From Octopus sinensis (Eukaryota): DNA of 64,000 nucleotides. The DNA is taken from NCBI RefSeq assembly GCF_006345805.1, contig NC_043000.1:27838001-27902000 (forward strand), written 5' to 3'. The position numbers were made by a program, and so were the translations under genes. Of this stretch, positions 1,418-63,436 are shown one piece after another (the first letter of the stretch is position 1; every line of letters starts with the position of its first letter). The notes under the pieces were generated by a model. It made no database searches. It worked only from the letters and a program-made list of their open reading frames with translations, and was not told the DNA's origin.

Positions 1418-1503
1418 CTCGGTACGATCGTTTCGTACGAGGACATCTTTAATAAGCTACAAAAAATGCAGTGAATACAGATGGCTCGTACTCGTCAGCC
1501 GAA
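1418..1503 (-). ncRNA. Type I hammerhead ribozyme
   Basis: Minus strand: ttcgg CTGACGA gtacgag..ctcgtac GAAA cgatcg TA ccgag. Intact core, 7-bp stem II, palindromic stem III, GUA triplet. Confidence 0.9.
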
Positions 1504-1576
1504 AAAACATCAGAGAATTCCCAAACATCAAAAGGGGTAGATACAAAAGAGGTTGTAAGATTAACTGCATTGAAGA

Positions 1577-2020
1577 AAGTTCGATTCATGGAGATCCGAT
1601 GAAAGGTTTAAACTTAAAATTTGTGCATGTCTACATATAGCTCATAGATTTTAATAAGAAGTGTGAGAAATTTCGGATACAGTCATGCAAAATTTCTGAA
1701 AATCCGAGTAAGAGGCAAAGTGACTGCCATATCATGTAGAGGAAAGTCTGAGTAAAAGCAAAGTGACTGTCATATCGTGTAGAGGAACAGATTGTTATTG
1801 AAATTTACAAGAATCGCAGATAAGTTCGATTCTTGGAGATCCGATGAAAAGTCTTGAACTTACAGAATATGTGCATGTCCTTATAGTTCATAATCCAGTT
1901 TTGTGAAGAGATTTAGGGTACAATCATGCGAAAATATCAGGGAATCCGAATGAGAAGCAAAATGACAGTCTTATATTGTAGAGGTGCCTGTTGTTAATGA
2001 ATTTTACAAGAATCACAGAG
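1577..2020. repeat. Diverged tandem duplication (~245-bp period) in PLE 3' region
   Basis: aagttcgattc(a/t)tggagatccgatgaaa recurs at ~1577 and ~1822 with continuing similarity. Confidence 0.75.
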
Positions 2021-2719
2021 AGAGGGGGAGAAGGAAGTAGGATTTAATCAGTTACTGCTATTAGAGCTATCAAAGAGAAAGGAAAGGGGAACCTAAGGGG
2101 ATGGACACAAGTTGATACTACCAGAAAATCTAAGCTTGTTTAGTGCAAAATTCGAACTGAGGTCAACAATTTATTTCTTTATTTATAAATGTTACTATTA
2201 ATAGAATGTCAGGTTACAATGAGAGGTCAATTAGAAAGGAAAGAAAAATGGGGTTGTTCTTTAATGAAATCAAACAATTATATTATTAATATACTATACT
2301 ATAATACACTACACTATATCATATTATATTATTTTATATTATATTATATCGCATTACAATACACTACGATAGGTCTGGGATTAGCAGAATTAATTATTAG
2401 TGTAAAAGAAACTAATAGATTTAACTAACTAATATTTATATATGGGTTAAAAAATAGACTAGGAAATGGGGATAAAAATAGAGCAAAATTTTAATTAAAA
2501 TTAATAATATGGTCCAATAGACATAAATCAAATAATTTAAATCGATAAGTATTAAATAGTACCATCAGAGAGAGAAATTATAATCACAGCTAGTTAGATC
2601 TTATCTTTCTAGTTAAATATATAATATACTATGTAGGAGTGATATGTAAGTCAAAGTGAATTTTATGCAAAGTGATTCCAGTATACAGTTATCAATTGAG
2701 ATATCATTTAAAATATCAT

Positions 2720-5668
2720 TTAAAATATTTTAGTCTTAACTCGAGCATGTATACAAGAATTTCCAAGTTCAATTCTGCTGTTTAATTGAATTTCTCCATT
2801 ATTTCTATACATTAGTATTTCAAATGCTTCCATGGAGCAAAGTTGGCAACATACTCTGCTATTTTTATAGGGTTTTGCTCTTCTGACTAATTCCCAATTA
2901 AGGTTATATTTGATATTTTTGTTTTTTAGTTCCCAAATTTTACTAGAAAGAGTGGTGCTATCCGCTTTATGACGTAATTTAAAAGATGAGAGATGGTTAT
3001 TCAATCTCTGTTTAAAATTTACAGTACATCCAACATAAGAGAACTTATTATTATCTGTGGTTACGGAGCACATGTAGATTATGTTAATTAACCCGCATAA
3101 ATCAGGGGCCGGGCATTTTGATTTAATTCTGCAATTACATCTAGGGGCATTATAATTAGAGGTGGAATAACTTGAGGATAGAAGTCTTATGTTACTGTTG
3201 CTCGAAGCAGAGCGGGTAAATTTATCATGATTTTGATTATTGTTATTATCTAAAAAAACTCTATTATTGTAGTTAATATTATTATCTAAAATAGTATTAT
3301 CATTTATAGGTATTCTTATATTTTCATTTGGTTCTAAAGCCCTACTAACATTATTATTATTATTATTGGTGCTGCTATCTAAAATAATGTTATCATTATT
3401 GCAGTTGATGTTATCTCCTAAAGTAGTATTATCATCTGTCGGTATTCCTACACTATCGTTTGGTTCTATAACTCTACTATCATTGTTGATATTGTTGATG
3501 CTATTGGTATTGCTGTCGATATTGTTTTCCAAATGTGTAGTGTTGTTGCTGATAATATTGTTACCCTCATTCACTGTGCTTACATTCCTGGTATTATTCC
3601 TATTATTTACATAATCATTCTTATTTATGTTATTATTGTTGTTAACAATTCCATGGCTTTTGGTTCTATTTATTTTATGACATTCCTTATTATTATTATT
3701 GTTGCAATTATTACTGTCCGTGCTGTTATTACAATTTTCCGTTGTATTTTTATTTTTATTGATTAAATTTTTTCTGGCTAGTTTTATGTTATTATTATTG
3801 ATCTTAGCTATTAAAGTGGACATATTTGGGAGAGTTGAATAAGAAATTCTGACTGTTTTTTTAGAAATAATTTTATGATATCTATGAGAGGATGGGAAAT
3901 TTTTTTCTAGAATTATTTTGAATCTACCCTGAATATCTGATGAAACCGCACAGTTAAAAGGGATGTTTAGCCATATTATGTCTTTCTTATTAAATTTCTT
4001 AGAATTTGAGTTAGGGCTGCTAGAATTTTTCCCACTAGAGTTAGGGTTATTAGAGTTAATGCTACCATCATCAGATTCCTTGTATTTATTAATGTTCCTG
4101 TTAGCATGTTTGCTAGTTTTATCCAAGTTTATTTTATCCTTATTATAAGTATTCCCTGTTATGTTTTTATTAATATTCTTAATATCATTAGGGTACTTTG
4201 CCGTTGTAAATCTATTTCTACTATCATTTCTGGCTTGGTCAATATTGTTGTCTACGTTACTAATAGTGTGTTTCTTAATTTTAATTTTATTTAAGGTTGT
4301 CTTATCAGGGCTATCTGTGTTATGGTCTATGTATTTATCCTTATACTTATTATCATTACGATTAGATGTTGTATTAGATCCACATCTATGTATCTTTTCA
4401 GCTTGATCATTTTTGTTGTTTATGTGGTTATTGCTGTTTAAATTACTTAAATTATTATGATGAGTTCCAAGGTTTTCCGTATCTTCAAATGTAATTTTCT
4501 GGTTATATCCTGCTCTAGATAACGCCTCATTGTAATGTCCCGAGTGTGAGTTAAATATATTAAAATTAGATGATAATTTGGATATTCTTATGGAAATATT
4601 TCTAACTAAGGAATTAATTATATTTGGGGGATGATTAGATAATTTATTTACGTAACTAGTGATTTCACCTTCCTTTCTAAACGGATAATGTAGTTTGGAG
4701 TTAAGGTCTAAAGTGATATCTAGAAAATTAGCTATTTTAATGCTTGGTTCGTAGGTTATGCTAAGGTTGAAATCTTTAAAGAACCTATTAATCTTCTTTT
4801 TTATTCTTTCTATGTGTGATTTATTATTGGTATTGACAACAAACAAAGCATCATCTCTATATAGACCACCTTGCAATTCAGGGATCTCTTTATTAATGCA
4901 TTTCAGTAGATATGCTCCTACTAAATTGGTTACCTCAGCCGAATCACTTGAGCCCATAGGAATATCGAAAAAGTTAGGGGTATCAGCTCTGGTCCATAAT
5001 TTTCCCTCAAACTCAATAAATGTTTTTCTAGCTAAAAGTATAATGTCTATTTCTTCTCTAGATATGAGGGAGCGATTCATCGCGAATATAAGCGATTTAT
5101 TTAATAGGATAGGGGAAATGCTAGAGTAGTAGTTATTTATATCGAACTGAATGAAGGCTAAATTATTCGTATTAGTTAGGGAATTAAACCATTTAAGGAC
5201 CTCATCGGTATTTATCCACAGGCTTAAGGGAAGAAGTGGGGTTATTTGGGGTAAGATATTATCTAGGATAGATTTACTAAGTCGGCCAATATCCGACTTA
5301 GTTGGACAAATGAGTCTTACCGACGGGTTTTCTAGGAAATTCTTTTTATGGTCCTTAAGATTAATCCTAGGTTCGCATGGTACAATTGGTTCAGTTCTGT
5401 CTGCTAGATCATATTTTTCCATAATAGCTTTCATTTCTAAGTTAGTTTCCTTCAATTTTCTCTTGGTTGTAGTTTTGTATTTGGAGTTATATATATATAT
5501 ATATGATTGTATATTTATGCATTCATGCATGTCATCATCCGTCTCTCTTTCATTTGCCTCCTCTTTTGATATTTCATGTCTATTGTATTCTAAATTCTGC
5601 TGTTGAAGTTTTGCTTTTGCTCTCCCGTTTTTTGTTTTCCTTCTCTCCTTATTTGCCTCTTCTTTCAC
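2720..5668 (-). CDS. PLE polyprotein: reverse transcriptase + C-terminal GIY-YIG endonuclease, with two long Asn-rich inserts
   Basis: RT motifs LKDHK..P.VRLICP, FIQFDINNYYSSI, PMGSSDSAE, GLYRDD, NFLDITL. CxCx5C linker (CNCRIKSKC), IIY...YVG...R..NH and terminal CQLC. The first ~60 aa (GTG start, YIYIY) are probably read-through from flank. Cys pattern recalls the Hydra clade; Nematis not excluded. Confidence 0.9.
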   Translation of the reverse strand: MKEEANKERRKTKNGRAKAKLQQQNLEYNRHEISKEEANERETDDDMHECINIQSYIYIYNSKYKTTTKRKLKETNLEMKAIMEKYDLADRTEPIVPCEPRINLKDHKKNFLENPSVRLICPTKSDIGRLSKSILDNILPQITPLLPLSLWINTDEVLKWFNSLTNTNNLAFIQFDINNYYSSISPILLNKSLIFAMNRSLISREEIDIILLARKTFIEFEGKLWTRADTPNFFDIPMGSSDSAEVTNLVGAYLLKCINKEIPELQGGLYRDDALFVVNTNNKSHIERIKKKINRFFKDFNLSITYEPSIKIANFLDITLDLNSKLHYPFRKEGEITSYVNKLSNHPPNIINSLVRNISIRISKLSSNFNIFNSHSGHYNEALSRAGYNQKITFEDTENLGTHHNNLSNLNSNNHINNKNDQAEKIHRCGSNTTSNRNDNKYKDKYIDHNTDSPDKTTLNKIKIKKHTISNVDNNIDQARNDSRNRFTTAKYPNDIKNINKNITGNTYNKDKINLDKTSKHANRNINKYKESDDGSINSNNPNSSGKNSSSPNSNSKKFNKKDIIWLNIPFNCAVSSDIQGRFKIILEKNFPSSHRYHKIISKKTVRISYSTLPNMSTLIAKINNNNIKLARKNLINKNKNTTENCNNSTDSNNCNNNNNKECHKINRTKSHGIVNNNNNINKNDYVNNRNNTRNVSTVNEGNNIISNNTTHLENNIDSNTNSINNINNDSRVIEPNDSVGIPTDDNTTLGDNINCNNDNIILDSSTNNNNNNVSRALEPNENIRIPINDNTILDNNINYNNRVFLDNNNNQNHDKFTRSASSNSNIRLLSSSYSTSNYNAPRCNCRIKSKCPAPDLCGLINIIYMCSVTTDNNKFSYVGCTVNFKQRLNNHLSSFKLRHKADSTTLSSKIWELKNKNIKYNLNWELVRRAKPYKNSRVCCQLCSMEAFEILMYRNNGEIQLNSRIELGNSCIHARVKTKIF

Positions 5669-7334
5669 GTTTCTATAATTGTCAAGTTGTAACCAGCTTC
5701 AGAAAACATGCAGCAGGCGTTTGTCGTTACACGTTGTGAGGAAGAAACTAACAAAAAATGAAGTGAATCTTTATCGCCTCAAATCACAACAAAATACCGG
5801 TAAACAGAACTCCTGATAATCGAATCGTATTTTCCGTTAAAACTAATTCAAAGCAATATCTAAAACATAAACCACAACTGCATATATTAATAGAATGATG
5901 GGAGGTAAATGTGTGCTGGAAATCAGAGATTTAAGACAAAGCCTGACACGAATATACAAATATACATCACATAAAAGACTGATTGCAACAATAAAACCAA
6001 TGTTTTGGATAGAATTTTAGAAAACAATCCAACGGGCGCTATACACATACAGACGTAGAAGGCTATTTAGGCCTATTTGTTGTGACGAACTTAAAATTAC
6101 TGCCATACATCTGATCCTTTTTATTTCATGTCATAATTTAGGAAAACGTAAATTTGTTGGCCCCTGGTTTTCGATTAATATTTAATGATAGTTGCGTTTC
6201 TAAACCGGCAATCAAATTTCGGTAACTTGGTGCAAAAGATTTTTTCTTTTTCTCAGAAAGAACTTCTTTCACATAGTATCGGGTTCTAAAACAATGATTA
6301 CAACATGCGTCGACATACATCACAGAAGACTACGCACACACACACACACACACACACACAAATACACACACACACACTCTCATATATGCAGTCACACACG
6401 CACACAAACACATACACACACAACACACACAGACGCAGACTAAAACACACGCCCCTATACAACAAACTACCAATTGCTATTACGACACATGTTTTCACAG
6501 CTCCTGTCCAACGAACGTCACTTAGAAGGAATCAGTCAGCCAGAGGTTACGTTAGAAGGTTCTTTGTCAAGGTAACACGCAGTGGAATGACAATCAGTCA
6601 CACAGTTATTAACCGAATATTTAATTACCTACACCTTGTCTACAACGCATGTGTACGGCCCTAAGTTATTACAGTTATTTCAGTTTCGGATTCCCTAGTG
6701 AAATTCCTTACTTCTGTAATTGCAATGGCTTTCAGCAGTCAGTAAATCTATATTCTATTTCCATCCATTTGCCGAGATATGCTGGACATAAAAAAATCCG
6801 AATGCCATAAATTGCAATTAATTGCTTTTTAAATTCTTGATTCATATGAGTTCATTAAAAATAAATTTACTCGAAATAATTATTTTCGTCATGACTGGTA
6901 GTTTAAACAGACATAAAGAAACTTTTTTCCTCATCAGACGTATTATGAGATTAAGGCGATGTAGGAGGAAAATACCAGAAGTGAATGTTTGTATATGAAG
7001 TGATCGTTTATAAACCCGAGTTTAGTTTATAAATCTTGGTAATTTAATGTAAGACAGATCCGACAAGCGCAAATGATTCCTACTAAATTTAGACTGCAAA
7101 GATAAGAATATATTGAAATTCGGAACAAATTGATCAGCCCTTGCTCGTTTATATCCTTTCAAATGTTTGAGGAAAGTATTTGTGGCTGTGGATATCCAAT
7201 ACATTCAATAAATTTTTCTTTAAAAGTGCTTCTTTCAGTTTTCTATCTATCTTACCAATATCTGATTTCATATATATAAACAAAAGAACAGGAGTCATCT
7301 TCATTAGTTCACTAGAAGTAATGCACACAGAGTG

Positions 7335-7865: not shown

Positions 7866-7955
7866 TTCATAAAAAGTGTAGGTGGCATACATATATTTAT
7901 TAAAAAAGTAGTTTGAAAACGCCACCATATAAGACAAATTTTAATTTTCTGAGAG

Positions 7956-7995
7956 TTTTTACATGTTTCGGTGAGAAATTGAACCTTATCAAAAA
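7956..7995 (-). ncRNA. Minimal hammerhead with U3-A8 variant core
   Basis: Minus strand: ttt TTGATAA ggt..acc GAAA catg TA aaa; same core in the paralog at 40254-40295. Confidence 0.6.
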
Positions 7996-8524
7996 TATTT
8001 TTAAAAGTTAAATATAATAAAAAATTTCATAATTGTTTCTTACTAGTCTCAACACAGTACACGTGGTGGTGTTTTGTGAGTGGAAACATAATGGTTGTCT
8101 TGTGCGTTGACTAGAATCGTTGGATGTAATAGTCATATATACATATATATATATATATATATATTATCATATATTATATTATACTATATTAGATAAAGAG
8201 AGAGAGGAAGAGATAGGGAAAGAGAGGGACTGGGCAGGGATACGGAGCTGCTGTTTTGTCAGTTGTCAGATGCATCTTGCCTTGAATTATTCTATTTTAT
8301 ATATCTATTTATTTATTGATTGATATTGAAATGAAGTATATGTGGTGAAGTGTTTATAACTTTAATCTTTATACCTATTTTATTTGTTTTTATTTCTATT
8401 TTTCCCCGTTTCCTCAACAAAGTCTTTTGTGTTCAGTATATATATACACATATATGTCTATATATATGTGTATAAATGTATATATATTCACACACATAGA
8501 CACGCGCGCACACACACACACGCA

Positions 8525-10443: not shown

Positions 10444-11291
10444 AGAATGACAGAGCATAGCAAGCCATCTGAGTGACAGTGGGGTACAATCATACGAAGC
10501 CCAATGGAGGCGAGCTGGCAGAATCGTTAGCACGCGAGGCGAAATGCACAGCAGTATTTCGTGTGTGTTCATGTTCTGGGTTCACATTCCCCCGAGGTCG
10601 AATTTGCCTTTCATCCTGTCGGGATCGAAAAATTAAGTACCAGTTGCGTACTGGGGTTGATCTAATCGACTGGCACCCTCCCCCAAAATTTCGGGCCTTG
10701 TGCCTAGATTAGAAAAGATTATACTCAATATACTATGATGACTACCTTGCACATGCATCACAACCATTTGTGCAAGGCATGGAGAGCTTATATCAAGGTA
10801 AACAGCGCATGACTTTGTAGGTGGGGGCCCAGTTAGAATGTCCTTCTGGTTGAGTAGCCCATTCCGCTTAAGACGTCCCTGAATGAGAGTTGTTTCAGGA
10901 TGATGAACGAAATACCCATGTTTCCAGATGTAAATTATTCAAATTCCAAAGAATTCCTCTCAACACATGGCTACAATGCTCCCCCCACTATTTCTGCTCG
11001 TGATCAGGAACGCACATATGGTCAGGCACTAAGAAACTTGCTCAAGTAAAGATAAAGCAACTGACAGCTAAATCTGGGGTATCGTCAGCAAATATCTGCG
11101 CTGTAATCTATGCATTTATCGTCAGTTACTAAGGAACATGCTCAACTAGTTAAGGTCAAGTAACTGACAACAGGTCTCTGGTATTAAGCAGAATATTTAC
11201 TGTAGCCTTTTTTTGCTTTATACCAAGACAAAACATGCACATGATATCACTTCAGTTAACATCAAAAGTCAGAGAGCCACAGCATCAGGGC

Positions 11292-11381: not shown

Positions 11382-12883
11382 CATTCAGTAGTTTTATTTT
11401 TATAACGTGCTCTGTTTGACTTAGGTATGTGCTGTAATTTGTGGTGATGCTCTGATGGTTATTGTATAGAAAGTATTCTGCGTAGGATGTGTGCAGTGTC
11501 TAGTAGTGCAATTTTCTGTATATTATATGTATTTGTAAGTCCTGGTGTTTTTGTTATGTATTTGTCTGAATATTTTTTTATCATGCCTAATGCACCTACT
11601 ATGATAGGAATTGTTTCTGGTTTTAGATTCCACATTCTAGTTACCTCTATTTCTAGGTCTTTGTATTTTGAAAGTTTCTCCATTTCTTTTAGAGTCACGT
11701 TGTCATCGGCTGGTATTGATATATCAATTAGAAAGCTTTTTTTTTCTTCATGATCTCTGACACATATATCTGGTCTGTTGGCTTTAATTTCTCTATTTGT
11801 GTGTATTGGAATATCCCAGAGTATGGTTGCTTTCTCGTTTTCTGTGACCTTTTCTGGTGTGTGCCTCTACTATCTTTTTTCTGTAATTATTCCATAATGT
11901 TGGCATAGCTTCCAGTGTATGTAGCTCCCAACTCTGTGTCTGTGAATATATTCCTTCTTAGCCAGGACTGGGCAGCCAGAGATAATATGATTGTTTCTTG
12001 TCCATCGCCACATATTCTGCAGTTACTTGTTATATTTCTTTTTATTTTATAAGTTTTTGGTAATTTCTGGTGGGGAGGCATTGGTCTTGTGCTGCAATTA
12101 AAAATCCTTCTGTCTCTGCTTTGAGTCCTGAGCTTCTTTGTCTATTTCTTTTGCATTTAGTTTAGTCCAGTACTTGCCATGAAGGGGCTTTTCTTGCCAT
12201 CGTTTTATCATGGTCCGTTGCTGTTCTAGCTTTAGTTTGGATTTCATTTGCTTTATAGCTTTTGTTGTGTTTTCTTCTTCTTCTTCTTCTTCTTCTTCTT
12301 CTTCTTCTTCTTCTTCTTCTTCTTCTTCTTCTTCTTCTTCTTCTTCTTCTTCTTCTTCTTCTTCTTCTTCTTCTTCATATTTGTTAGGTGGTATGATTTT
12401 TATCAGTTTTCCTTGCTTCTGAAGTAGATATTTTTGCAGTCCTATGGTGTTTATTTTATAGTAGTTTTCCAGCTTTATAAGGCTTCTATCACCTTCTATA
12501 CGTTGTATATTTAGCCTTTCTATGGCATATTTTGGGTGATGCATCCTAGATCCTGTCATTATTTTTCTTGTATTCCTATCTATTTTGGTTAGTTCATTTA
12601 GCGTCCAGTTAAGGATATTGTAGCTGTAACTGGGACGCCTACAGTTTTAATACCTATTATCTTGTTTTTAGCATTGGGCTCTGTTTTTAGAATTGATTTA
12701 ACTCGTCTATAGTATTCTTTCTTTATTTTCTCTTTCATTTGTGTGTGTTGTGTCTTATTTAGTTCTTGGATTCCTAAATATTTGTAAGTTTGGCTTTGGT
12801 CTAATTCTCTTATTTCATTGTCTTTATCTAGTGTGATGTTGCTACTCTTAACTAGTATTCCTCTTTTCAGGGTTACTTTGGCG

Positions 12884-14965: not shown

Positions 14966-15066
14966 TTATTATTACTACTATTCTTATTATTATTATAAAT
15001 TTCTTTTACGTAATGAGATAAAAAAAATCAAGGCTGTGTAGATATTAGAACATTTATAGATAAAAG

Positions 15067-15118
15067 GTCTTACAGCTGTTTCCAGGATATTTATTAATCA
15101 TATCCCTTCATCGGAGAC
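15067..15118 (-). ncRNA. Type I hammerhead (CCGAUGA core) in a PLE 3' remnant
   Basis: Minus strand: gtct CCGATGA agggata..tatcctg GAAA cagctg TA agac. Confidence 0.7.
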
Positions 15119-15275: not shown

Positions 15276-15436
<161 letters not shown>

Positions 15437-17760: not shown

Positions 17761-18385
17761 GGAAACAAGTAGAGAGGCAACAGTTAATCAGAGAGCTATA
17801 TACATAGAGAAGCACAAAATTAGTTCGTTGATTCGGTAGATAGATACACTCGTACATACCTACATAATACATATATGCATGCATACATACATACGTACAC
17901 GCATACATACATAGAAATGAGCATGCATACATACATACATACATACATACATACATACATACATACATACATACATACATACATGGAAATGTGCATGCAT
18001 ACATCGATTCTCAGCTGCACGCATTCATAGCCACATCCACAGGTACAAAGGTAATTTTAAGGGAAATGGGTAGGCAGGGATGTTGGATTTAATCAAACAG
18101 ACTGAGATGCAAAAGAACCCTTTCTAAATACGCCGATACTTATTCATTTGTCTTGCAACAACCTCAATCATTCTTAAGGAATCATTACGAAATTTCACTC
18201 AGAATGTGTGCATGCTTAGATCTTGAAGTAAAATACGGATGGATCAAAAAATGCAAATTGTAGACTAACTGCATTCAGTTGGTATGAAGACAGAACATCC
18301 TAATGATAAACGTGGCAAAGAAAGGAAAGTAGTACAAAATAATCAGCAACGGAGTCTCTCCTCTCACAGAACGAACAATTTTCAC

Positions 18386-18596
18386 TTTATTTACATTTGA
18401 CGGATATTTGTCCTCATCTCGTTTGTTGTTAAGACAATGTTTCAGCTGATATAACCTCCAGTTTCATAAGGTGTCTTCGGGGAATTTCGAACCTGGATTC
18501 TCATTCCTAATCTATATTTCGATCTTGTTGTTATTATTAATATTATTATTATCATTATTATTATCATCATCATCATCATTATTATTATTATCATCA

Positions 18597-18646
<50 letters not shown>

Positions 18647-18721
18647 GAGGTCACTACCTGGAATCGAACTCGGATCCTTGGGCTTAGTATCCCACGCTCT
18701 TAACCACTGCGCCATATGCCC
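18386..18721 (-). mobile_element. tRNA-head + (AAT)n + hammerhead unit, left (inverted) copy
   Basis: Minus strand: A box tggcgcagtgg, B box gagttcgattcc, (AAT)n, then decayed HHR at ~18431-18476; inverted homolog of 18724-19700. Confidence 0.8.
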
Positions 18722-18831
18722 GTGGGCATATGGCGATGTTATGGACTCGATTTCTTTGTCCGTCCTTGTAGTGGTTAAGAGCGCCGGCTATTAACCCCAA
18801 GATTCAGAGTTCGATTCGAGGCAGTGACCTA

Positions 18832-18911
<80 letters not shown>

Positions 18912-18920
18912 TAATAATAA

Positions 18921-19505
18921 TACACCCTGAAGCTGTAACTGAAGGAGAAAATGCAACGATTCTGTGGGACTTTCCAGTACATACAGACCGAACCATCAAA
19001 GACAATAAACCGGATATTGTTGTAAAAGACCAAAACAATAAAGTTTGCTTATTGATAGACATGAGCATCCCCTGTGATCATAATATCTCGGCGAAAGAGT
19101 TTGACAAGCTCAGAAAATATAAAGACCTGCTCATTGAAATTGAGAAAATGTGGCATCTCAAAGCGGTTACAATACCAGTGATCGTAGGAGCACTAGGAAT
19201 GATCAAGAAGGGAACCGAAAATTATATGAGACTGATCCCTGGCTTACCATCCCTGCAAGAAGTGCAAAAGATTTTCTTAACTGGTACATCACACGTATTG
19301 AGAAGAGCATTGTCGATGTCAGAACTATTACTACCCATGTATTTTAATTTAACTTTATTTCTATCAAAAAAAAAAAAATGAACGAACGAACTAGTGAATT
19401 TAGTTTAATGGCCTACCAATGTATACTGTGAGTTTCTTTCCCCTAGGAGTCGGGAAGACACTCGGCAAGAAATGGAAGCAAATTTGAAGGAAGAAGAAAA
19501 AAAGA
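18921..19505 (+). mobile_element. R4/Dong-like RLE 3' fragment nested in (AAT)n
   Basis: ILWDFPVHTDRTIKDNKPDIVV..LIDMSIP..KLRKYKDL..PVIVGALG. Confidence 0.85.
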
Positions 19506-19584
19506 TTATAATAATAATAATAACGACAACGACAATATCGAAAAATACCTTACGAATGAGAATCAAGTGACGAAATTCCCCCAA

Positions 19585-19630
19585 AACATCTGATGAAGCC
19601 TGGAGTATATATTAGCCGAAACGTTGAGTT
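19585..19630 (+). ncRNA. Minimal type I hammerhead, stems partly decayed
   Basis: aacat CTGATGA agcctg..tagcc GAAA cg TT gagtt. Confidence 0.65.
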
Positions 19631-20038
19631 AATAACAATCAAGATGAGGACAAATATCCGTCAAATGTAAATAATGTACATCTCATAAATATAGAACTGT
19701 ATTAATAATGTAAAGTATAGAAGCCATCTTATCATGGCTAACCACATTGGGGAGGGGGTGTTACTGTAGCTTTATAGCCCCAAGAGATCTTCGTCGCAAG
19801 CTGGCTTTAGACACAATATCAGTGTCCTTGAGGTATTTGCAAAGGGAGGCCATCCCTTCCTCGCAAGCCTGAGTGATACGCTCGAACTAGTTCCCAGTCT
19901 ATGACCAGGCTCGTGAGACCTACACTGGCCTATATATCCACATGTTAGCCCATAAATAAGAAATCTGGTGAATAATCATCCTTGACCTGGAGAGATTACC
20001 AATGATGATCATTAAGGTTTTATCTCTATTACTACACA

Positions 20039-20549: not shown

Positions 20550-22230
20550 AAAAAGCTTTCATTTGTTATATCCTGCATTTAATACTGATATCTTCAAAAT
20601 GTTATCATGCGGTCTTTTAGTACCACACAATACAGAAAATAATTTATTATTTTATTCTTTCCCATTTATATATGCTTATGTTCTCAATATACTCAAGTTT
20701 TATGTTTAATAAATCGTTCTGATAAATTTTTTAATGTATTTTAACATTAGAACAAACTAATAATATGATACATGGAGCATAATATGCGATTATTTTATAA
20801 ATATAAACATATTTAAACGTGAAAACATCAAACAATAAATTTAAATCTTCAGAGTAATTTTTCAAGCATGTGATGTTTTTAAATGATAAATTTTATTAGT
20901 GCCTGGTTTGTGATATATAGAGTCTATAATTTTCTGTCCGTATTATGACACATGCTGGGAGATTACTTTAAATAAATATAATTTGGGGCTGATATATTCA
21001 AATATGGTTGTAAAGCAATGAAAGACTGAATGATGCTGGTTGTATTTTCGATGGTATTTTGAACATAATATGTTTTTGAAGAGATGATTTTTAAATTAAA
21101 TATTATAGAAATTTATTTTCTCAAATTGCTGAGAGCTCCTGAAAAATGTTCATGGAGTTGTCTCATTCTAGAAGGTAAATGCTTGCCACAAATCTTTCTA
21201 GAGAAGAAACTGCTTGGAACATGATAGAAACTGGAATAATATATCGGAAGTAAGAAGAGGAAGCTCTTCACTATCATTTTCTTTGCCTGTCGCCATCCAT
21301 TTCTCAGTAACTTTGGCACTTTGGCATAATCACCAGGACAGCATGGAGACATAATCTATTTGCCAGAAGAGAGAAAAAAATAAGCACACCTTGAGTTTAC
21401 CTCTGCCTTGTATAACCAAGCACTGACCATATACATTGAAAATAGTATGCCGTTAAAGGCTGACATGGATGTTCAACACTATGGATTTACGCTTTAATTA
21501 CCAACAATTATTTCGGTAACTAGACAACAACCTGTGAAATATCCGCTGACATTTAACTTCGGGGACACTCTCGTAAAGTTACTCGAGTTTAGCTGAGAAG
21601 ACCGCGTTCCTCTTAAGCTCAAATGTATGTTGTATGCTGAGGTGTTGGGCCAACACATATTTTGACACTTTAAAGTTTTCAGTGGCATCCGATTTGTACA
21701 TTTATGTATAACAAAACTGATTCCAGACTCTCTATATTTCAATAAAAGAGAGACATCACGCCACTTGGAAATAGTGAAGTTTCGTTTCATACGAAATATA
21801 TATATTACTCTTCCAACCCTTTTTTATAGGCGTTCATAACCCGACTGATAAAAGTCTGTTTTTCTTTCATTATATAATTCTGTTTTTCTTTCACGCTCTC
21901 TTTTTGTTTCTATCACTTTCTCTGACTTCCATATTTGCCTATTTTCCAGAATTACTATTCCTTTCTCACTACATATTTACATATTATATTTCATAATCAA
22001 TTTATCTTGTCAATCTTCTACTCTCTTTTTTCTCTATCAAATTATCGCCGGCCCTTACTCAGCCTGCCAACTTTGATATGCTACACATATATGCGTATGC
22101 TGCATGTATATGTGTATGTATGTGTGTATGCATGTATGTATGTATGTATGTATGTATGTATGTATATATGTATGCATGCATGCATGCATGAGTGTGCGTG
22201 AGTGCGTATAAGTTCGTTTCTGTATATACA

Positions 22231-23923
22231 CACACTACAACTCACTTACCGATAATGAAAGAGACTACATCACCAATTTCGAACCAAGACCCAGCAACTT
22301 CTACGGCCTACCGAAAATACATAAATCAAAAGATATTCAACATGCAGTAACAGAACAAGAAAGTGAGTACATAAAATTACTACATCCAAAAGACCTAAAA
22401 CTTAGACCTATTATAGCTGGTCCAGCATGCCCTACCCACCGTCTAAGCAATTTCATTGACATTGTTTTGAAACCACTATGTACTTACATACCCAGTTTCA
22501 TCAGGCATGACATCGACTTCCTGTCCCATCTTCCCAAAACAACAGAAACAAATTCAGTTTTACTAAGTTTTGATGTGGTAAGCCTCTATACCAATATTCC
22601 ACACGATTTAGGATTAAAGGCGATTAAATACTGGTTAGAAAAACATAGAGAAGTGATTCCCAGCAGATTCACAGTGCCATTTATATTAGACACAGTCAAA
22701 CTTATTCAAGAAAACAACACATTCTTCTTCAATAGAAAGAATTACATCCAAATTAGAGGCACGGCGATGGGAACGAGGTTTGCTCCCGTTTACTCCAACT
22801 CTGTAATGAGATACTTAGAACAACAACTCAACCAAGAGGTGGAGGTAAACTATGGCACTGGATTTAGAAAGTATATTGAAAAGGCATGGAAGAGATACCT
22901 TGATGACTGCTTCATAATCTGGACAGAATCTCTAAATACTCTGGAAGAGTTCAATATCCTCCAGAACAATCTACACCCATTTCTCCAATTTACAAATTTA
23001 CCATTCCTAGATATAATGGTAATTAAAAAGGACACCACCATCACCACAGATATATACCATAAACACACAGACACACATCAATACTGAATTTTAAGTCGTG
23101 CCACCCACCACATACAAAATGCAACATCCCATACTGCCTAGCCAGAAGAATTTGTACCATTGTAGAAGATGCAAATATCAGGAACAAACGCCTAACAGAA
23201 CTAAGAGAATTTTTGCTCAAACAAAAATACCCATCTCTACTTATAGAAAATGGCATACAGTGGGCTATAAAAATACCCATACAACAACTTAGGACAACCC
23301 AAGGAAGAGGAAAACAAGAACAAGTCATACCATTCATAGTGACACACAATCCATGTCACCAGAATATCGTCAACATTGCCAAAGCAAACCTACCAACCAT
23401 TGCTCAAAGTAATGAATTAAAAGATATAATCACGGATCAAGCTATGGTTCTTAGTAACAGACAGCCTAAAAACTTGAAAAAATTACTAACAAAGGCAAAA
23501 TTTGACCTTAGCAACAAAGACCAAACATTCACTGTATCTAAATGCAATGATAGCCGATGTGGCACATGCCAATTCATACATACCGGCCAATATATAAACA
23601 CAAAAACCGGGAAAATATTCACAAACGTGAATATGAACTGCAAAAGCAGAAATTTAATTTACTGCATCAAATGCCCAAATTGTGAAGAAATATATGTAGG
23701 TCAGACGGGAAATGCACTATCAGAACGCTCACGTGTACACCGACAACAGATTAGAGACCCAGAAGTCCGTCAGATACCTTTGAGTAACCACCTAGCAACA
23801 TGTGGTCGGAAAATATATATAATATTTCCATTCTACAAATTACGCACCCCAAGTGAAATCGAGAGGAAAATCAGAGAAAAGAATTTTATTGATAAATTTA
23901 AACCCAAGCTAAATAAGGAATAA
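22231..23923 (+). pseudogene. Neptune-type PLE RT + GIY-YIG, 5'-truncated, frameshift near 23085
   Basis: FYGLPKIHK, LRPII, SFDVVSLYTNIP, GTAMG, RYLDD, LPFLD; Cys linker CNDSRCGTC; LIYCIKCPNC..YVGQT..R..H. Confidence 0.9.
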
Positions 23924-24396
23924 TAATAATACTTAGAGGTACTACTTCTACTGCTACGACCATGACCACTAACAACAACAACAATACTAAAGGTGATCAA
24001 GATGAAGATAGCAGGAAAATTTTCTTATTTAGGGTTAAAAGTTCTATTGCCACCACCATTACCACTAGCAACAATAATTAAGGTGCTGACAATGATGATG
24101 ATGACAACTGAAATATAAAAATCTCTGACAAAGGCTATTTACAACATTTCTAAAAATAGCCCAACAATTGCTGCCTCGGCCACGGTTAAGATACAGGACT
24201 CTTGACATGTTCAACAAAGCGTGACGCCTAAACCAACCAGTCAGCTTAAGTAATTGAGTGATGCTACACACTGATTCGTCAGAATACAGTTTGCAAAACC
24301 TAGCAATCTGGAGTCCACGCAGGTGTATTTAAGGCACAGATTTCACCATCTCGCTACAGTCACAAATTGTGAAGCATGACTGACACCACTACTACA

Positions 24397-24441
24397 TGAA
24401 CCTGAAGATTGCATAATTTAATGCATGAAAGTACTAGTTCA
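24397..24441 (+). ncRNA. Minimal type I hammerhead
   Basis: tgaac CTGAAGA ttgcat aattta atgcat GAAA gtac TA gttca; palindromic loop III. Confidence 0.85.
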
Positions 24442-24601
24442 ATCAGAATGAACATTTAGCATTCCATTATTTTATTTTATTTTATTATATTATATTAGCT
24501 TATATTATATCATTATAAGATTGTAAATAAAACGTGAAAATCAGACAAGGCTGGAATTCCTTTTATTAATATATTCTTCTATACACAATCATACACACCC
24601 G

Positions 24602-26590: not shown

Positions 26591-26638
<48 letters not shown>

Positions 26639-27217: not shown

Positions 27218-27304
27218 ATGCAGCTGAAGATGGCACTACATTTAAATGATGTAATTATTGCAATCGTCAATTAAATGGAGCCACTTGAAACGGTCATACT
27301 GCAT
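27218..27304 (+). ncRNA. Type I hammerhead with long stem II at the end of a decayed PLE-like 3' remnant (~26640-27335)
   Basis: atgcag CTGAAGA tggc..gccactt GAAA cggtca TA ctgcat; ~30-nt tail then (TA)n. Confidence 0.75.
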
Positions 27305-32211: not shown

Positions 32212-32811
32212 TTATTGATATAATAAATAGGACAAACCCCCATTACTCTACCCTATGTATAGCACAGATCATGAGCAGCCTAACCTCCAAAAATTAATAT
32301 AAGCAAGCAAGAACCATTCAATACAAGCTCTACACTCGAAATCAAAAGTAACACACGGAACCATGAAAACAAACGATCTTACAAACGCAACAATCGCGAC
32401 CATAACGTATTTTAAGACCAAGTTCTTACTGTGACTGGGATGAAGTTGAGATCAACAGCACGTACTTATAAATAACAGCGCTCCTACCTTCCAGTGGACG
32501 CTGGAAAAAGTATAAGTATTTGTGAAGGAAATCTAATTCTCGCCGACAACTATGATTGTCACACGCTGACGAGAGGTCAATACCTCGAAACTCGAGTCCG
32601 TGTGTATCGTAAGTTGAAGACGGGAAGGATGACTTCCCTTTGCAAATACTGACAGGACACAGAAAGTGTGTCTATGGCCAGCTGGAGGAGTGTGTCCTCC
32701 TGGGGCTAAAAACTACAGTAGCATCCACCCTTAGGGGTAGCCATATTGAGATGGCAAATATACGTCACGATGTGTTACCGCTACTGTATATAACTCACTT
32801 TGATATTTATC

Positions 32812-32864
<53 letters not shown>

Positions 32865-40253: not shown

Positions 40254-40295
40254 TTATAACATGTTTCAGTTCCTGAAATGAACCTTATCAAAAAA
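40254..40295 (-). ncRNA. Minimal hammerhead with U3-A8 variant core
   Basis: Minus strand: tttt TTGATAA ggttc atttcag gaact GAAA catg TT ataa. Confidence 0.55.
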
Positions 40296-40619
40296 AGTTA
40301 TATATAAAAAAAGACAGCTCATGCCGTCAAACACAAGAATTTCATTTATAATACACAACGGAGTCAGACATCTTAGAGTTCATGTATAGTTGATATATAG
40401 TTCATGTATAGTTGATATATAGTTTGAAGTATATGTTCAAAGTGTTCGATGCAGTGGCCCACGGTGGCGATACGTATTCAATACAAAAAACAGATCAAAG
40501 TTGTGGAAAGCGGTCAATACAGAAGATTGATGTTTCCGGAAGAGCGAGGAATTCATTTTTACCTTAAGCAATTGTGATGACCCATGGTGGATGTTCGCTA
40601 TATATATACATATATATGC

Positions 40620-48285: not shown

Positions 48286-48303
48286 TATATAAGTATTCCT
48301 TGG

Positions 48304-50200: not shown

Positions 50201-50209
50201 TTCCTAGTA

Positions 50210-51944: not shown

Positions 51945-51980
51945 CTTTTGCATTTCGAGTCTATGCTCTGCGACAGAAAG
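51945..51980 (-). ncRNA. Degenerate minimal hammerhead
   Basis: Minus strand: cttt CTGTCGC agagcatagactc GAAA tg CA aaag; several core mismatches. Confidence 0.45.
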
Positions 51981-52057
51981 GAACACAGAAATAAACAGAG
52001 AGAAAATAAACAGAGAGAGGATATAAAAAAGGTTTAGTGGCTAGCGATCAATCATGG

Positions 52058-52095
<38 letters not shown>

Positions 52096-58645: not shown

Positions 58646-58677
<32 letters not shown>

Positions 58678-58730
58678 TATGAATAAATGAAAGAATGGAG
58701 TCGAACGAAGATGTTAACAAAATTCCTTTA

Positions 58731-58811
58731 CTCTCGACACATGTTTCGAAGACAGCATATTTTCATTCCGAGGAATAAAGGGTGCATTATGCAATCTTCT
58801 CATCAGGAAAG
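58731..58811 (-). ncRNA. Type I hammerhead ribozyme
   Basis: Minus strand: ctttc CTGATGA gaaga..tcttc GAAA catgtg TC gagag; GUC triplet, extended stem II. Confidence 0.85.
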
Positions 58812-58899
58812 AAAAGGAGCCTCTCTCAACAAGACAAACAAAAATTTCGATGATTGCCTACATGGTAACCAAAGCGATAATGAGTTTAAAAAAAAACTA

Positions 58900-59515: not shown

Positions 59516-59636
59516 GTGTATATATATATATATATAATATTAAATAGAGACAAAACCACTATTATGCAAATCAAACAAAGAAAGACTTAATCCAATACAT
59601 AAAAAATTTTATATAAATTAAATAAAATTAAATCAG

Positions 59637-59682
59637 CCACTACAATTGTTTCGTGTCTCTTCTAGGGACATTCATCAGGTGG
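59637..59682 (-). ncRNA. Type I hammerhead (left arm)
   Basis: ccac CTGATGA atgtc cctagaaga gacac GAAA caattg TA gtgg. Confidence 0.9.
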
Positions 59683-59703
59683 TCTTCAGATCTTCTCTGA
59701 AGA

Positions 59704-59749
59704 CCACCTGATGAATGTCCCTAGAAGAGACACGAAACAATTGTAGTGG
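59704..59749 (+). ncRNA. Type I hammerhead (right arm)
   Basis: Identical to the left-arm motif. Confidence 0.9.
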
Positions 59750-60163
59750 CTGATTTAATTTTATTTAATTTATATAAAATTTTTTATGTATTGGATTAAG
59801 TCTTTCTTTGTTTGATTTGCATAATAGTGGTTTTGTCTCTAATTAATATTATATAATATTTTACTATAAAATTGGATTCAATCCTAAATCTGATTTTTCC
59901 CTGTAAATTTGGATTTATTCTCTAATATTTATTATTATATATATATATATATATTTATAAACGTATCGGAGTTTATTGTTTAAGATTACATAGATTCCTC
60001 TGCAGTGTTGTTTTGCACTTATAATAAAATGAATATATACAAATTATAAAATTAATTCTAAAATATACAGTACAGTACATCTTCTACTTCAAGGATTTTC
60101 ACCCATCGCGAGAGGTTTTGGAACGTAACATCCGTGGTAAACGGAATGCAGTAGGAAAAGTCC

Positions 60164-60247
60164 GGGCTACCTATGTTTCATAGTGTGTGGGATCTCAGAA
60201 GTGGTAAAATCCACACGTGGTATATACCGCCAGCTACTCTTCAGGCG
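60164..60247 (-). ncRNA. Decayed type I hammerhead with long stem II
   Basis: Minus strand: gc CTGAAGA gtag..ctat GAAA catagg TA gc; lies downstream of the PLE pseudogene. Confidence 0.6.
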
Positions 60248-60899
60248 AATGATATCTTGATTACATTGAAGGCTAGATTGTCACAAGGAGGTACATGTTG
60301 ACGCAAAGAGGATTCAATGCGTGGATGAGAGTATGTGAGAGGTGTATAAATATAGGGAGAAATAGGTTCTTAGAAGAAGAGAAGAAAGAAGAGAAAGAAA
60401 AAATAATAAATAAGTAAATAAAATAAAATGATATTTAGGGAAGAGAGATGAAGGACGAATTGGGCAGGTCACTAGTAGATAATATAGTAGTTTAGCTACA
60501 GAATTTAATAGTGGGATTGGAAAGTGATGAGAGAATAATTGGAGGCGAAGGGGGGAATATTTTTGGTCGTGAGGGAGAAATAATGTGTGCATGAATAAAG
60601 CAGCGTAAGGGGTTAAGCATGGCTAGTGTTTGTTCGTAGTTGAGAGGTTTCAGTGGCCGAAAGACATAAATTGACACAGAAAAGTAACTATAAAGTGGTG
60701 GAGGCGTATGTAGGCGTGTGTATTTGTGAGTTTATGGGTGGGAGTAGGATGGGGATGGAGTAGATTTATAAAGAGAGACGAATATTATGTGAGGTTTAAT
60801 ACGAAGTGGTAGTGAAGTTGGATAAGTGAGAAAAATATATATGAGAGCAAGGGGGAGACAAGAGCGGAGTGGGATTGTAATTATTTGTACTTTGAGAAT

Positions 60900-62263
60900 A
60901 GATTTAGTGCCCGATGTTTACGAATGAATATTATACTGCTGCAATATGTGAATGCTGAGACAATCTGTGGATAGCAAAATAGCCATGACCTCTGCTATGC
61001 ATAGAGCACACCTGTTATTATATCCGTAGTAAGGTTTCGCGTCAGTGACTATAGAGTGTAAGAGGTTGAATCAAGCGTTAGTTTACTGAAAATTTCAGAT
61101 AACGATGTACTGTTGCATTTTGTTGGGGATTTGAAGCTAGAGTAATGGTTACTCGCCCTAGCTTTGAAGCTGATGGTAATGAGCCAATGTAAATGTAGTT
61201 ATATTTGTTAGTTGATACTGCGCACTTATATACAATGTTTTTAGTGAGACAGCGGGTATCTAAAGGACAGGACGGTGGGCGTCTGCAGCTGCATCGGTTT
61301 GTAAGGAGTGTTCCGGATGAGCTTGAAAAAGGTTATTTAGTGAGGAATCGGTGTTCGGTTCGTTATTATAGTTGGTGCTTAAGGTTATCATTTGACAAGT
61401 AATTAAGGGTAGAGTGTTGTTGGGGTGTAAGGTATGGTAATTATTGTGTCTGGTGGTAACCTCTGGTATGTTCTTTCTAATGACAGGAGGTATATTTGGG
61501 CATTGTGGTACATTTAAGGGGCGGATGTTAGCATTGGCATTATAGTTGTAGTTATGAGGGTTAGTGTTAAGGGGGTCAGTTGGTGATTTGGGTTTGCATG
61601 TATGAAGTTGGGGGCTATGTTGAGTTAATTTACTAGGGTAAGGGTGGATTTCCGATAATTGCGGCTATGTTGTTGTTGGCGGTGGTGGTGGTGGAGTAGG
61701 ACAATTTTATAGATTGGCGATTAAATATATTTCTAAGAGGGTTGATTTAGGGAAATGCTTTTCGAGTATGGCGAAGAAGAGTTTGGGTACTCGAGTCTAG
61801 ACGCTAAGAGTGAAGGGGGTGGAACCACATGACATCTCGGGTTCCAGTTCATTTAATCTGATCGGGGCGGTGTTATCCGGATGGAGATAGGGTTTTGGAG
61901 ATGTATGTTGGTGTCTATTTTTGTGGGTTGTGGTGTATATAGGATTAGAGGTTATCAGCTGGGGGGGGGGTCGTTTGCTACTCCAATATTTGGATGACTA
62001 TTGGAGGGGTGAGTAGGGGGTTACCTTTGTAATAAAAGGGTTGGAAATTTTTTTTTGCTCTGGGTTTAGTTGAGAGGGGAATGTCCCACATGGGGGGGGG
62101 GGCATTCAACTGAATGTTTATATCCGGCACGTTGTAGGGCACAGTTGTTGCATTCAGCATATTGATCGAATAAATCTTGATTAGCAGACAATGAGAAGGT
62201 CCGGTAGGACACGCTTTCATCAATAGACTTTAGAACGGAGAGGGGTGGAGCAGGAGAATTCAT
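60900..62263 (-). pseudogene. PLE remnant (thumb + GIY-YIG) related to the 2720-5668 ORF
   Basis: ALQRAGY, VMWFHPP..ILEKHFP..IFNRQSIKLSYST, CSCRRPPSCP..CLTKNIVYKC..YIG, CALC; stops and frameshifts. Confidence 0.85.
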
Positions 62264-62264
62264 A

Positions 62265-62651
62265 TACTCTTTACTCTTTTACTTGTTTCAGTCATTTGAC
62301 TGCGGCCATGCTGGAGCACCGCCTTTAGTCGAGCAACTCGATCCCGGGACTTATTCCTTTTGTAAGCCCAGTACTTATTCTATCGGTCTCTTTTTGCCGA
62401 ACCGCTAAGTGACGGGGACGTAAACACACCAGCATCGGTTGTCAAGCAATGCTAGGGAACAAACACAGACACACAAACACACACACATACATATATACAT
62501 ATATACGACAGGCTTCTTTCAGTTTCCGTCTACCAAATCCACTCACAAAGCATTGGTCGGCCCGGGGCTATAGCAGAAGACACGCAGTGGAATGAACCCG
62601 GAACCATGTGGTTGATTAGCAAGCTACTTACCACACAGCCACTCCTGCGCC
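62265..62651 (-). mobile_element. tRNA-derived SINE (family B)
   Basis: Reverse complement of the 36663-type element. Confidence 0.85.
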
Positions 62652-63380
62652 TATATCTAAATATTAACCTATTAAATCCCCTAATATTCAGTGGTAACTC
62701 TTATTCCAAAATAATTTAACATTCAACTGGGTACACCATTCACGACCACTTACACTCATACCCCCATAGCTAAAAATATTTCTGCAGCCACTGATCTTAG
62801 CCATAAAAAGGACGCAAACACTTTCTACCAGATTTCCTCCTCAACTGCAGCCACCTAGAACAGCACTGGTACCTCTAATTTTCTTTGACTCCCTTTCATT
62901 TTACTTTATTATGTATTATCTTATGCTATCTTCCTTTACCTCCTCCTCTCTCCTTATCTACCCTTATATATTTATTTATTTAACTTTTTGCTTGAATTTG
63001 TATATTATACTTTTATATACATCATTCCTTGCTTTCCTCCTGCACTTTCTGTACCTCCTGCCTTCATATAAATAACTTCCTCTCTTTCTGCTTATTATTT
63101 TTTCTCTTTATCCCTTAATAGCCACCTCCGCTGCCATTTTCTTACGAAACCTCGATACGTTCGCGTTTATCTCTGGATATTCACACTATTAAGACTATAC
63201 CCATACATGATTTTCACAGGATTGCACTTAAGGACTTATGGACTAACAATCAACACTATCGGATAGTTGGACTGTGAAATTTATGCTTCTTTTTTTCATT
63301 TTGTTCATTACTTTATTCCTTTTTTCCTGTCCTCCATGTCATCGTTTCATTAATCCATACTCTTCACATTTTCCCTATTT

Positions 63381-63436
63381 GTTTTCGATGACGGAATTTC
63401 CCATACTTTGAGATATCCCAGAAACAGCTGTAAGGC
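63381..63436 (+). ncRNA. Decayed hammerhead (15067-like) in a PLE-like 3' remnant (~62700-63500)
   Basis: gttt TCGATGA cgga..tccca GAAA cagctg TA aggc; same palindromic stem III as 15067. Confidence 0.55.

What the first reader, a model, noticed from the sequence alone, without database searches (positions are those of the whole stretch)
1418..63436. Fourteen hammerhead motifs in 64 kb from about ten distinct sequence families
Seen: type I HHR-order motifs at 1418(-), 7956(-), 15067(-), 18431(-), 19585(+), 24397(+), 27218(+), 40254(-), 51945(-), 58731(-), 59637(-), 59704(+), 60164(-) and 63381(+). Stems I and II differ in sequence but mostly still pair. Stem III is usually a tiny palindrome (cgatcg, gtac, catg, cagctg, caattg), and most motifs lie a short distance from a microsatellite. 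Established: such minimal HHRs mark PLE pLTRs and work as dimers. Inference: most are ORF-less PLE ends that protein-based annotation would miss, implying a very large ribozyme load in this genome.
Basis: partly seen in the sequence, partly recalled or inferred. Interest (0 to 1): 0.75.

Follow-up and report, generated by a model that had tools for sequence, protein, structure and literature searches.

The report
Penelope-end hammerheads saturate a genome
The motifs are real hammerhead-ribozyme sequences at the ends of many families of Penelope-like jumping genes, a known pairing; this genome holds an estimated 100,000 of them, and most lone copies likely do not cut RNA.

Summary
Observation confirmed. 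Of 14 motifs, 8 have a perfect canonical core, 2 the known U3-A8 covariant, 1 U4C, and 3 are broken. A 15th, in a young 352-nt retrozyme at 32566, was missed. The scan gives 10 hits against 0.57 in shuffles. Family consensuses pair 43/44 (stem I) and 40/44 (stem II). In random genomic DNA, 11 of 16 six-base helix III inserts are palindromes (0 of 17 shuffled). Ten of 14 motifs link to PLE ORFs of three clade types (Hydra, Neptune, Poseidon; motif-based labels); three have ORF remains in the window; four stay unlinked. An 800-kb random sample implies about 0.85-1.6 x 10^5 motifs genome-wide; the window is 3-4 times richer than average. Rfam finds none at its cut-offs. Insertion ends show templates were not left cut, matching published in vitro work, so a large motif load is not a large active-ribozyme load. 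Known kind. This scan already noted the scale, retrozymes and tRNA-headed PLE on other DNA, including this genome. Extras: a family of about 37,000 copies fixed for A6U, and family-specific dimer palindromes.

The parts
1417..1504 (-). Hammerhead, perfect core, 57-nt helix II arm, 6-nt palindrome; 3' end of the Hydra-type PLE; young family (99-100% identical copies)
1384..5487 (-). 5'-truncated Hydra-type PLE between (TA)n runs; RT + CxCx5C linker + GIY-YIG in open frame 2720-5698 (P0001), 1.2-kb 3' UTR
7956..7996 (-). Hammerhead with U3-A8 covariant core, decayed helix II in this copy; solo PLE end (about 7888-8180); Hydra EN upstream in 1 of 19 near copies
15067..15118 (-). Hammerhead with U4C core (most near copies; canonical in some); element 15004-15276; no ORF link found
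18381..18735 (-). Inverted arm of a Poseidon-type pLTR: tRNA-like head, (AAT)n, broken hammerhead at 18431-18475
18755..19681 (+). Forward arm of the same insertion: tRNA-like head, (AAT)n, nested insert 18923-19505, hammerhead 19585-19630 with perfect core
22213..24600 (+). 5'-truncated Neptune-type PLE; RT frame 22212-23087 and GIY-YIG frame 23063-23923 split by a frameshift; hammerhead 24397-24441; ends in (TA)n
27218..27304 (+). Hammerhead, perfect core, long helix II arm; 3' end of a Hydra-type PLE with a long 3' UTR (element from about 26250 to 27340)
32492..32814 (+).
40254..40296 (-). Hammerhead with U3-A8 core; sister family of 7992 (69-79% identity)
51945..51980 (-). Broken hammerhead (C3 at 51976); its family is fixed for A6U; element 51838-52060; GIY-YIG remains upstream in L222
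58729..58813 (-). Hammerhead, perfect core, 52-nt helix II arm; solo end (58676-58887) of a Hydra-type PLE
59526..59960 (.). One head-to-head insertion (palindrome 59541-59845) holding hammerheads 59637-59682(-) and 59704-59749(+); no ORF link found
60141..62278 (-). Decayed Hydra-type PLE: hammerhead 60164-60248, EN remains 61052-61332, RT remains 62069-62278
63381..63436 (+). Broken hammerhead (two core changes), same palindrome as 15114; no close copies among fetched loci; weakest of the 14

Best explanation
These motifs are hammerhead-ribozyme sequences in the 3' terminal repeats of many Penelope-like element (PLE) families and one retrozyme, left behind as truncated insertions that were likely copied from uncut RNA and likely do not cut on their own. 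Shown: motif, covariation, family membership, ORF links, TA-run targets, inversions, fixed 3' ends and scattered 5' ends. Inferred: a PLE RT-endonuclease nicks the target (TA runs for Hydra- and Neptune-type families, not for the Poseidon-type one), starts reverse transcription inside the RNA 50-250 nt downstream of the hammerhead, reads through the cut site and usually falls off early, leaving a solo end; copying from the second target strand gives the head-to-head pairs. The motif is under selection in the few master elements, where tandem copies would form a double hammerhead through the helix III palindrome; solo copies decay neutrally, lack a partner, and in head-to-head pairs are predicted to be buried in a long fold-back helix.
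For: Excess over shuffles. Family consensuses pair stem I 43/44 and stem II 40/44 vs permuted means 19.1 and 26.7. In random DNA, hits picked on stems I and II alone have palindromic 6-nt inserts in 11 of 16 cases, six different palindromes, vs 0 of 17 in shuffles. EN upstream on the same strand: 15/29 (24402), 4/19 (1498), 7/19 (58806), 2/19 (19590), 1/19 (7992), 1/19 weak (51976); 4/15 for 27224 after walking upstream; 16 of 25 Poseidon-type ORF ends are followed by the 19590 hammerhead. Of 107 copies not fetched by their own family's query, 80 start 30 nt or more upstream of the cut and 3 within 4 nt of it, these being mostly deletions or repeat fusions. Retrozyme runs: 0 of 54 start at the cut, 41 of 54 end at two fixed sites. 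Same features in PMC4209133, PMC8557442 and PMC11167929 (uncut RNA is the main substrate, two internal RT starts).
Against: No cleavage or expression data. Four motifs have no ORF link (0/19 and 0/15 for 15114, 0/18 for 59708). Clade labels rest on protein motifs, not a tree; Pfam gave no hit for P0001 or the Poseidon-type frame. The window families were chosen by eye for looking like hammerheads, which inflates the pairing. Six-base palindromes give a predicted self-duplex of -6 to -11 kcal/mol and two motifs fold well alone (z -3.6 and -2.4), so some cutting in trans or as monomers is not excluded. Cut-and-religated circles would leave the same genomic footprint as uncut RNA. Two-base inserts show no palindrome excess.
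Confidence: 0.85

Rival explanations
1. Most families here are autonomous-independent circular RNA parasites (retrozymes) that are cut, ligated and copied round the circle, rather than stumps of coding PLEs.
For: True for the 32566 family: 352-nt tandem units, no frame over 84 aa, runs up to three units, circularly permuted ends. The 59708 family starts about 40 nt before the core in several copies and has no ORF link; 15114 likewise unlinked.
Against: 10 of 14 motifs connect to RT/EN-bearing copies; tandem hammerhead copies occur in 7 of 19 retrozyme loci but in 0-1 of 18-29 loci of each other family.
Confidence: 0.08
2. The solo motifs are active ribozymes that cut host pre-mRNAs (in trans or as mixed dimers) and act as a regulatory layer.
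For: One motif per 17-32 kb genome-wide; 8 of 14 cores perfect; two same-strand sister motifs (7992, 40291) share a palindrome; young families are 99-100% identical.
Against: No cross-family pair of 55 has a fully pairing stem I; head-to-head pair predicted fully buried in a -241 kcal/mol hairpin; copies decay with family age; published PLE hammerheads are inactive as monomers and weak as dimers (PMC4209133).
Confidence: 0.05
3. The motifs are chance matches in AT-rich, low-complexity DNA.
For: Three motifs have broken cores; 9 of the 14 folded motifs have z-scores between -1 and +1.2; loose U3-A8 matches are common in shuffles (10.8 vs 18 observed).
Against: Shuffle controls, palindrome test, repeat membership and ORF links. 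Only 63385 lacks direct family support.
Confidence: 0.02

Closest known systems
Type I hammerheads in pLTRs of metazoan PLEs (Cervera and de la Pena 2014, PMC4209133; parts 1-2 of 4 read)
   Same: Type I order, palindromic helix III, bulged base after A9 in some families, U3-A8 covariant, many families per genome, mostly solo motifs, pairs on opposite strands 100-700 nt apart.
   Different: Estimated 31-58 per Mb here vs about 9,000 per genome in Xenopus tropicalis (different descriptors, not directly comparable); helix II arms up to 58 nt; a family fixed for A6U; 10.1-11.1 is not G-C in the 24402, 27224 and 59708 families.
Hydra, Neptune and Penelope/Poseidon clades of EN+ PLEs (Craig et al. 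2021, PMC8557442; passages and section 11 read)
   Same: CxCx5C linker, CxxC and CxH flanks and (TA)n insertion (Hydra type); CX4CxxC linker (Neptune type); no linker and no TA target (Poseidon type); 5' truncation, inverted copies, optional tail.
   Different: Three clade types side by side in 64 kb; the Poseidon-type pLTR carries a tRNA-like segment with A and B boxes, not described in the passages read.
Metazoan non-LTR retrozymes (PMC7229834, passages and section 14; bioRxiv 10.64898/2026.07.22.740005, parts 1-2 of 5)
   Same: 32566 family: 352-nt, 43% GC, ORF-less tandem unit with one type I hammerhead.
   Different: Only 1 of 15 motifs; expression and circles not shown; no octopus or cephalopod in the main text of PMC7229834.
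PAc Poseidon element of Anolis (Frangieh et al. 2024, PMC11167929; passages read)
   Same: Two internal RT start sites giving two 3' ends; hammerhead cutting not needed for insertion.
   Different: Shown in vitro there, inferred from genomic ends here.
Schistosome SM-alpha SINE-like elements (via review PMC6765202, passages)
   Same: Pol III-type promoter ahead of a hammerhead.
   Different: Here the promoter-like head is part of a coding PLE's terminal repeat.

Membership tests
Type I hammerhead ribozyme | Core CUGANGA...GAAA...UH in type I order | tested here: met
   8 of 14 perfect, 2 U3-A8, 1 U4C, 3 broken in the window copy; 32566 perfect
Type I hammerhead ribozyme | Helices I and II pair and covary | tested here: met
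   43/44 and 40/44 across 11 family consensuses vs 19.1 and 26.7 permuted; 27 vs 1.9 hits in random DNA
Type I hammerhead ribozyme | Site-specific self-cleavage | not testable with these tools
   no assay; genomic ends show no pile-up at the cut
Rfam Hammerhead_1 and clan | Reaches a curated gathering score | tested here: not met
   0 hits in the window and in 150 kb of the random sample; best 32.2 bits vs 34
Dimer-type PLE hammerhead | Helix III too short to fold alone, palindromic | tested here: met
   9 of 14 window copies; 11 of 16 six-base inserts in random DNA vs 0 of 17
min-HHR in the strict sense (no helix III insert) | No bases between A15.1 and U16.1 | tested here: not met
   all 15 motifs have 2-6 nt inserts
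EN+ Penelope-like element | RT plus C-terminal GIY-YIG upstream of the motif | tested here: met
   10 of 14 motifs; not found for 15114, 63385, 59678, 59708
EN+ Penelope-like element | 5' truncation, inverted copies, alternative 3' ends | tested here: met
EN+ Penelope-like element | RT phylogeny within PLE clades | not tested
   no named reference set; clade labels from linker motifs
Non-LTR retrozyme (32566 family) | 150-450 nt ORF-less tandem unit with one type I hammerhead | tested here: met
   352 nt, longest frame 84 aa, arrays of 2-4 hammerheads
Non-LTR retrozyme (32566 family) | Expressed as circular RNA | not testable with these tools
   no raw RNA reads were available to lay
tRNA-derived SINE (18470/19590 family) | tRNA-derived head with A and B boxes | tested here: inconclusive
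   boxes in 22 and 14 of 25 loci; Rfam tRNA 15.8 bits, E 2, none in L142; ARAGORN 0 of 16 loci
tRNA-derived SINE (18470/19590 family) | Non-autonomous, starts at the head | tested here: inconclusive
   19 of 23 and 6 of 8 copies start within 30 nt of the A box, but the head is part of an ORF-bearing PLE and a short hairpin there could stop RT

The most novel reading that the evidence does not exclude
The hammerhead fold in these PLEs serves mainly as a family-specific RNA dimerisation signal: the helix III palindrome and stem I act as a self-recognition code that pairs two templates of the same family for two-ended (head-to-head) insertion, while catalysis is dispensable. This would explain why no two of 11 families are fully cross-compatible, why a family fixed for A6U reached about 37,000 copies with its stems and palindrome kept, and why 10^5 motifs are tolerated in host introns.
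Probability: 0.2. Interest if true: 0.72.

Novelty: new member of a known kind. Interest (0 to 1): 0.35.

Why it matters
The PLE-hammerhead link is published, so the window itself is an ordinary, dense sample of it. What it adds is scale and diversity: about 10^5 motifs from dozens of families that Rfam cut-offs miss entirely, which matters for repeat and ncRNA annotation. It also offers natural variants (A6U, U4C, U3-A8, long helix II arms, many palindromes) for the open question of what the PLE hammerhead is for, since published work shows cutting is not needed for insertion in vitro.

Tried and rejected
Rfam at E-value level was swamped by microsatellite matches to miRNA models (211 lower rows not shown). 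The repeat finder on the whole window was swamped the same way. My first scorer lacked the bulge after A9 and counted U3-A8 as two errors, so it under-scored 7992, 40291, 19590 and the 51976 family; it was replaced. I first labelled P0001 Neptune-like; its CxCx5C linker fits Hydra. Consensuses from nearest copies are biased to the query, so the random sample was added. Sequencing-run search for the retrozyme: no RNA holder listed; nothing was laid. Monomer folding z-scores were uninformative for most motifs. An apparent cluster of 5' ends at the cut in the 19590 family turned out to be deletions and repeat fusions, one case ambiguous. mis-parsed one family and was redone; two cut sites were set 1 nt off and one motif 16 nt off, without effect on the counts reported. 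No ORF was reached for the 15114 family after one upstream walk; the 59708 and 63385 families were not walked. Lunse et al. 2017 (PMC5785218) is not held and was not read; it may already describe these core variants. No supplements were opened; those of PMC4209133, PMC8557442 and the bioRxiv preprint may list cephalopod elements or A6U cores.

Full report
Setting. The window is 34% GC with 132 tandem-repeat rows and lies on a large contig of a 2.72-Gb genome, G000. It looks octopus-like; that label is from my recall of the repeats and from earlier AI notes, and was not tested.

Observation. Each of the 14 places holds a motif in type I order. Eight window copies have the perfect canonical core, two (7992, 40291) have the U3-A8 covariant described in PMC4209133 and PMC3088659, one has U4C, and three are broken (18470, 51976, 63385). 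Against local dinucleotide shuffles that keep microsatellites in place, the first scorer gave 9 hits vs 0.55 at S>=17; the second, which allows the bulge after A9 and core variants, gave 10 vs 0.57 at S>=16 and 8 vs 0.15 at S>=20. The 15 motifs form 11 clusters; two pairs are single head-to-head insertions. Rfam reports nothing at its cut-offs in the window or in 15 of the 80 random stretches, in which my scan had 7 hits at S>=20.

Structure support. Eleven family consensuses parsed by core anchors alone pair 43 of 44 stem I and 40 of 44 stem II positions; 20,000 permutations gave means of 19.1 and 26.7 and maxima of 35 and 38; all four Watson-Crick pair types occur at three of the first four stem I positions and three types at the first. 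These families were picked by eye, so an independent test was run on random DNA: among canonical-core hits chosen on stems I and II only, 11 of 16 six-base helix III inserts are perfect palindromes of six kinds, vs 0 of 17 in pooled shuffles; two-base inserts show no excess (3 of 8 vs 4 of 14). No cross-family pair of 55 pairs stem I fully in either direction; 7 have compatible helix III, 2 of these with 3 of 4 stem I pairs.

What carries them. All 11 motif regions searched are dispersed repeats with 568 to 2572 first-look candidates (only the best 40 were scored and 20-30 fetched, so these sets lean to near copies). Three motifs sit at the 3' end of PLE ORF remains in the window: 1498 (992-aa frame with RT, CxCx5C linker and GIY-YIG, fitting the Hydra description in PMC8557442 section 11), 24402 (RT and GIY-YIG frames split by a frameshift, CX4CxxC linker, Neptune type) and 60244 (decayed Hydra type, tied together by L210). 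For other families an EN lies upstream in some copies: 58806 in 7 of 19, 7992 in 1 of 19 (40291 is its sister), 19590 in 2 of 19, 51976 in 1 of 19, weakly but with sequence shared by a random-sample copy, and 27224 in 0 of 19 at first, then 4 of 15 after walking 1.1 kb upstream. No ORF was found for 15114 (0 of 19, 0 of 15), 63385, or the 59678/59708 pair (0 of 18). So 10 of 14 are tied to coding PLEs and 11 of 14 are ORF-less in place. Clade names rest on motifs, not a tree. A (TA)n run lies within 350 nt on the 3' side of 12 of 15 motifs vs 27.5% of random positions; the Poseidon-type family ends at TA in 0 of 19 copies.

Special cases. The 32566 element is a retrozyme: 352-nt unit, 43% GC, no frame over 84 aa, 99-100% identical copies, tandem in 7 of 19 loci. 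The 18470/19590 family is the pLTR of a Poseidon-type PLE: of 25 ORF-end loci, 22 have an A-box match 38-52 nt after the ORF-end match, 14 a B box and 16 the hammerhead; 19 of 23 tail-selected and 6 of 8 independent copies start within 30 nt of the A box. The tRNA origin is only weakly supported by models, and a short hairpin at that place is a rival cause of the shared starts. The 51976 family has U at core position 6 in 42 of 42 parsed copies while position 7 varies, with 11 copies in 800 kb, about 37,000 genome-wide; a sister family keeps the canonical core. PMC3088659 (passages) reports low activity for A6C; a search for A6U listed two papers that by title and abstract are on other subjects and were not opened.

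Scale. Eighty random 10-kb stretches from the 30 largest contigs gave 27 hits vs 1.9 shuffled at S>=20 and 56 vs 9.3 at S>=16: 31-58 per Mb, about 85,000 (bootstrap 55,000-119,000) to 159,000 (111,000-210,000). Profiles of the window's families alone find 38 sites, about 129,000 with decayed copies. The window is 2.7-4 times richer than the mean (resampling P 0.010 and 0.0006, ignoring regional clustering and the fact that the window was chosen). Small contigs were not sampled. Published counts seen: about 9,000 in Xenopus tropicalis (PMC4209133), about 5,000 in mussel and up to 120,000 in axolotl (PMC7229834), 235 by Rfam in giant squid (PMC6962438, passages); descriptors differ.

Mechanism. 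In the retrozyme, 0 of 54 runs start at the predicted cut (nearest 4 nt; some starts are walk breaks) and 41 of 54 end at two fixed sites about 170 and 217 nt past it, including loci fetched with the 3' product alone. In eight other families, 80 of 107 independent copies start 30 nt or more upstream of the cut and 3 within 4 nt, mostly deletions. This fits PMC11167929 (passages): two internal RT starts, and uncut RNA as the main substrate. Religated circles would leave the same footprint and are not excluded. Lone copies lack a same-family partner, and a transcript across 59541-59845 is predicted to bury the motif in a near-perfect hairpin. Cleavage and expression were not tested.

Literature. 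Searches for hammerhead + Penelope + octopus, hammerhead ribozyme + octopus, SINE + tRNA-derived + Penelope + hammerhead and Penelope-like + SINE + polymerase III + pLTR listed no paper on a cephalopod hammerhead census or a tRNA-headed pLTR; PMC13282606 (passages) reports recently active Penelope families in an octopus and has no 'ribozyme' in its main text. PMC8490949 and PMC10886601 (passages) added nothing. The library is partial and no supplements were read. Earlier AI notes of this scan report the same scale, retrozymes, uncut copying and tRNA-headed PLE on other DNA, some in this genome; they are not counted as support.

Verdict. Real, well supported, and of a known kind. Interest is modest: the scale, the A6U family and the family-specific palindromes are useful for the open question of what PLE hammerheads do.

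Noticed in passing
   Followed up: yes
window 19715-19860 (-): 71% match to the 3' half of the retrozyme unit: an older related family, no hammerhead seen by the scans.
   Followed up: no
window 44489 (+) and 37474 (+): Possible further decayed hammerheads (scores 13 and 9, palindrome-like helix III), within the chance range.
   Followed up: no
window 18923-19505 (+): Nested insert in the pLTR pair, also in L135; reads like the 3' end of a LINE with a restriction-like endonuclease (recalled; no Pfam hit).
   Followed up: partly
window 42532-42891 (+): Mariner-type transposase fragment (Pfam Transposase_1).
   Followed up: no
window 47169-50292 (-): GC-richer block with a fragmented RT (RVT_1 at 49078-49428) that does not match the PLE profiles; likely a LINE.
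   Followed up: no
window 1577-1984: Internal 75-80% repeats in the 3' UTR of the Hydra-type element.
   Followed up: no
window 11411-12882 and 13012-14457: Direct duplication of about 1.4 kb at 76-83% identity around microsatellites.
   Followed up: no
window 10506-10722, 20039-20260, 31981-32228, 34788-35393 and 30741-31143, 33051-33451, 36663-37198, 62280-62663: Two abundant dispersed SINE-like repeat families; one forms a 187-nt tandem at 34853-35324.
   Followed up: no
L093-L108 (59708 family): Several copies share a 5' start about 40 nt before the core while inversion junctions differ per copy; may mark a transcription start.
   Followed up: partly
L231-L310 (random sample): Further hammerhead families absent from the window, including ones with 7-nt helix III inserts (L240, L258, L278).
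   Followed up: no
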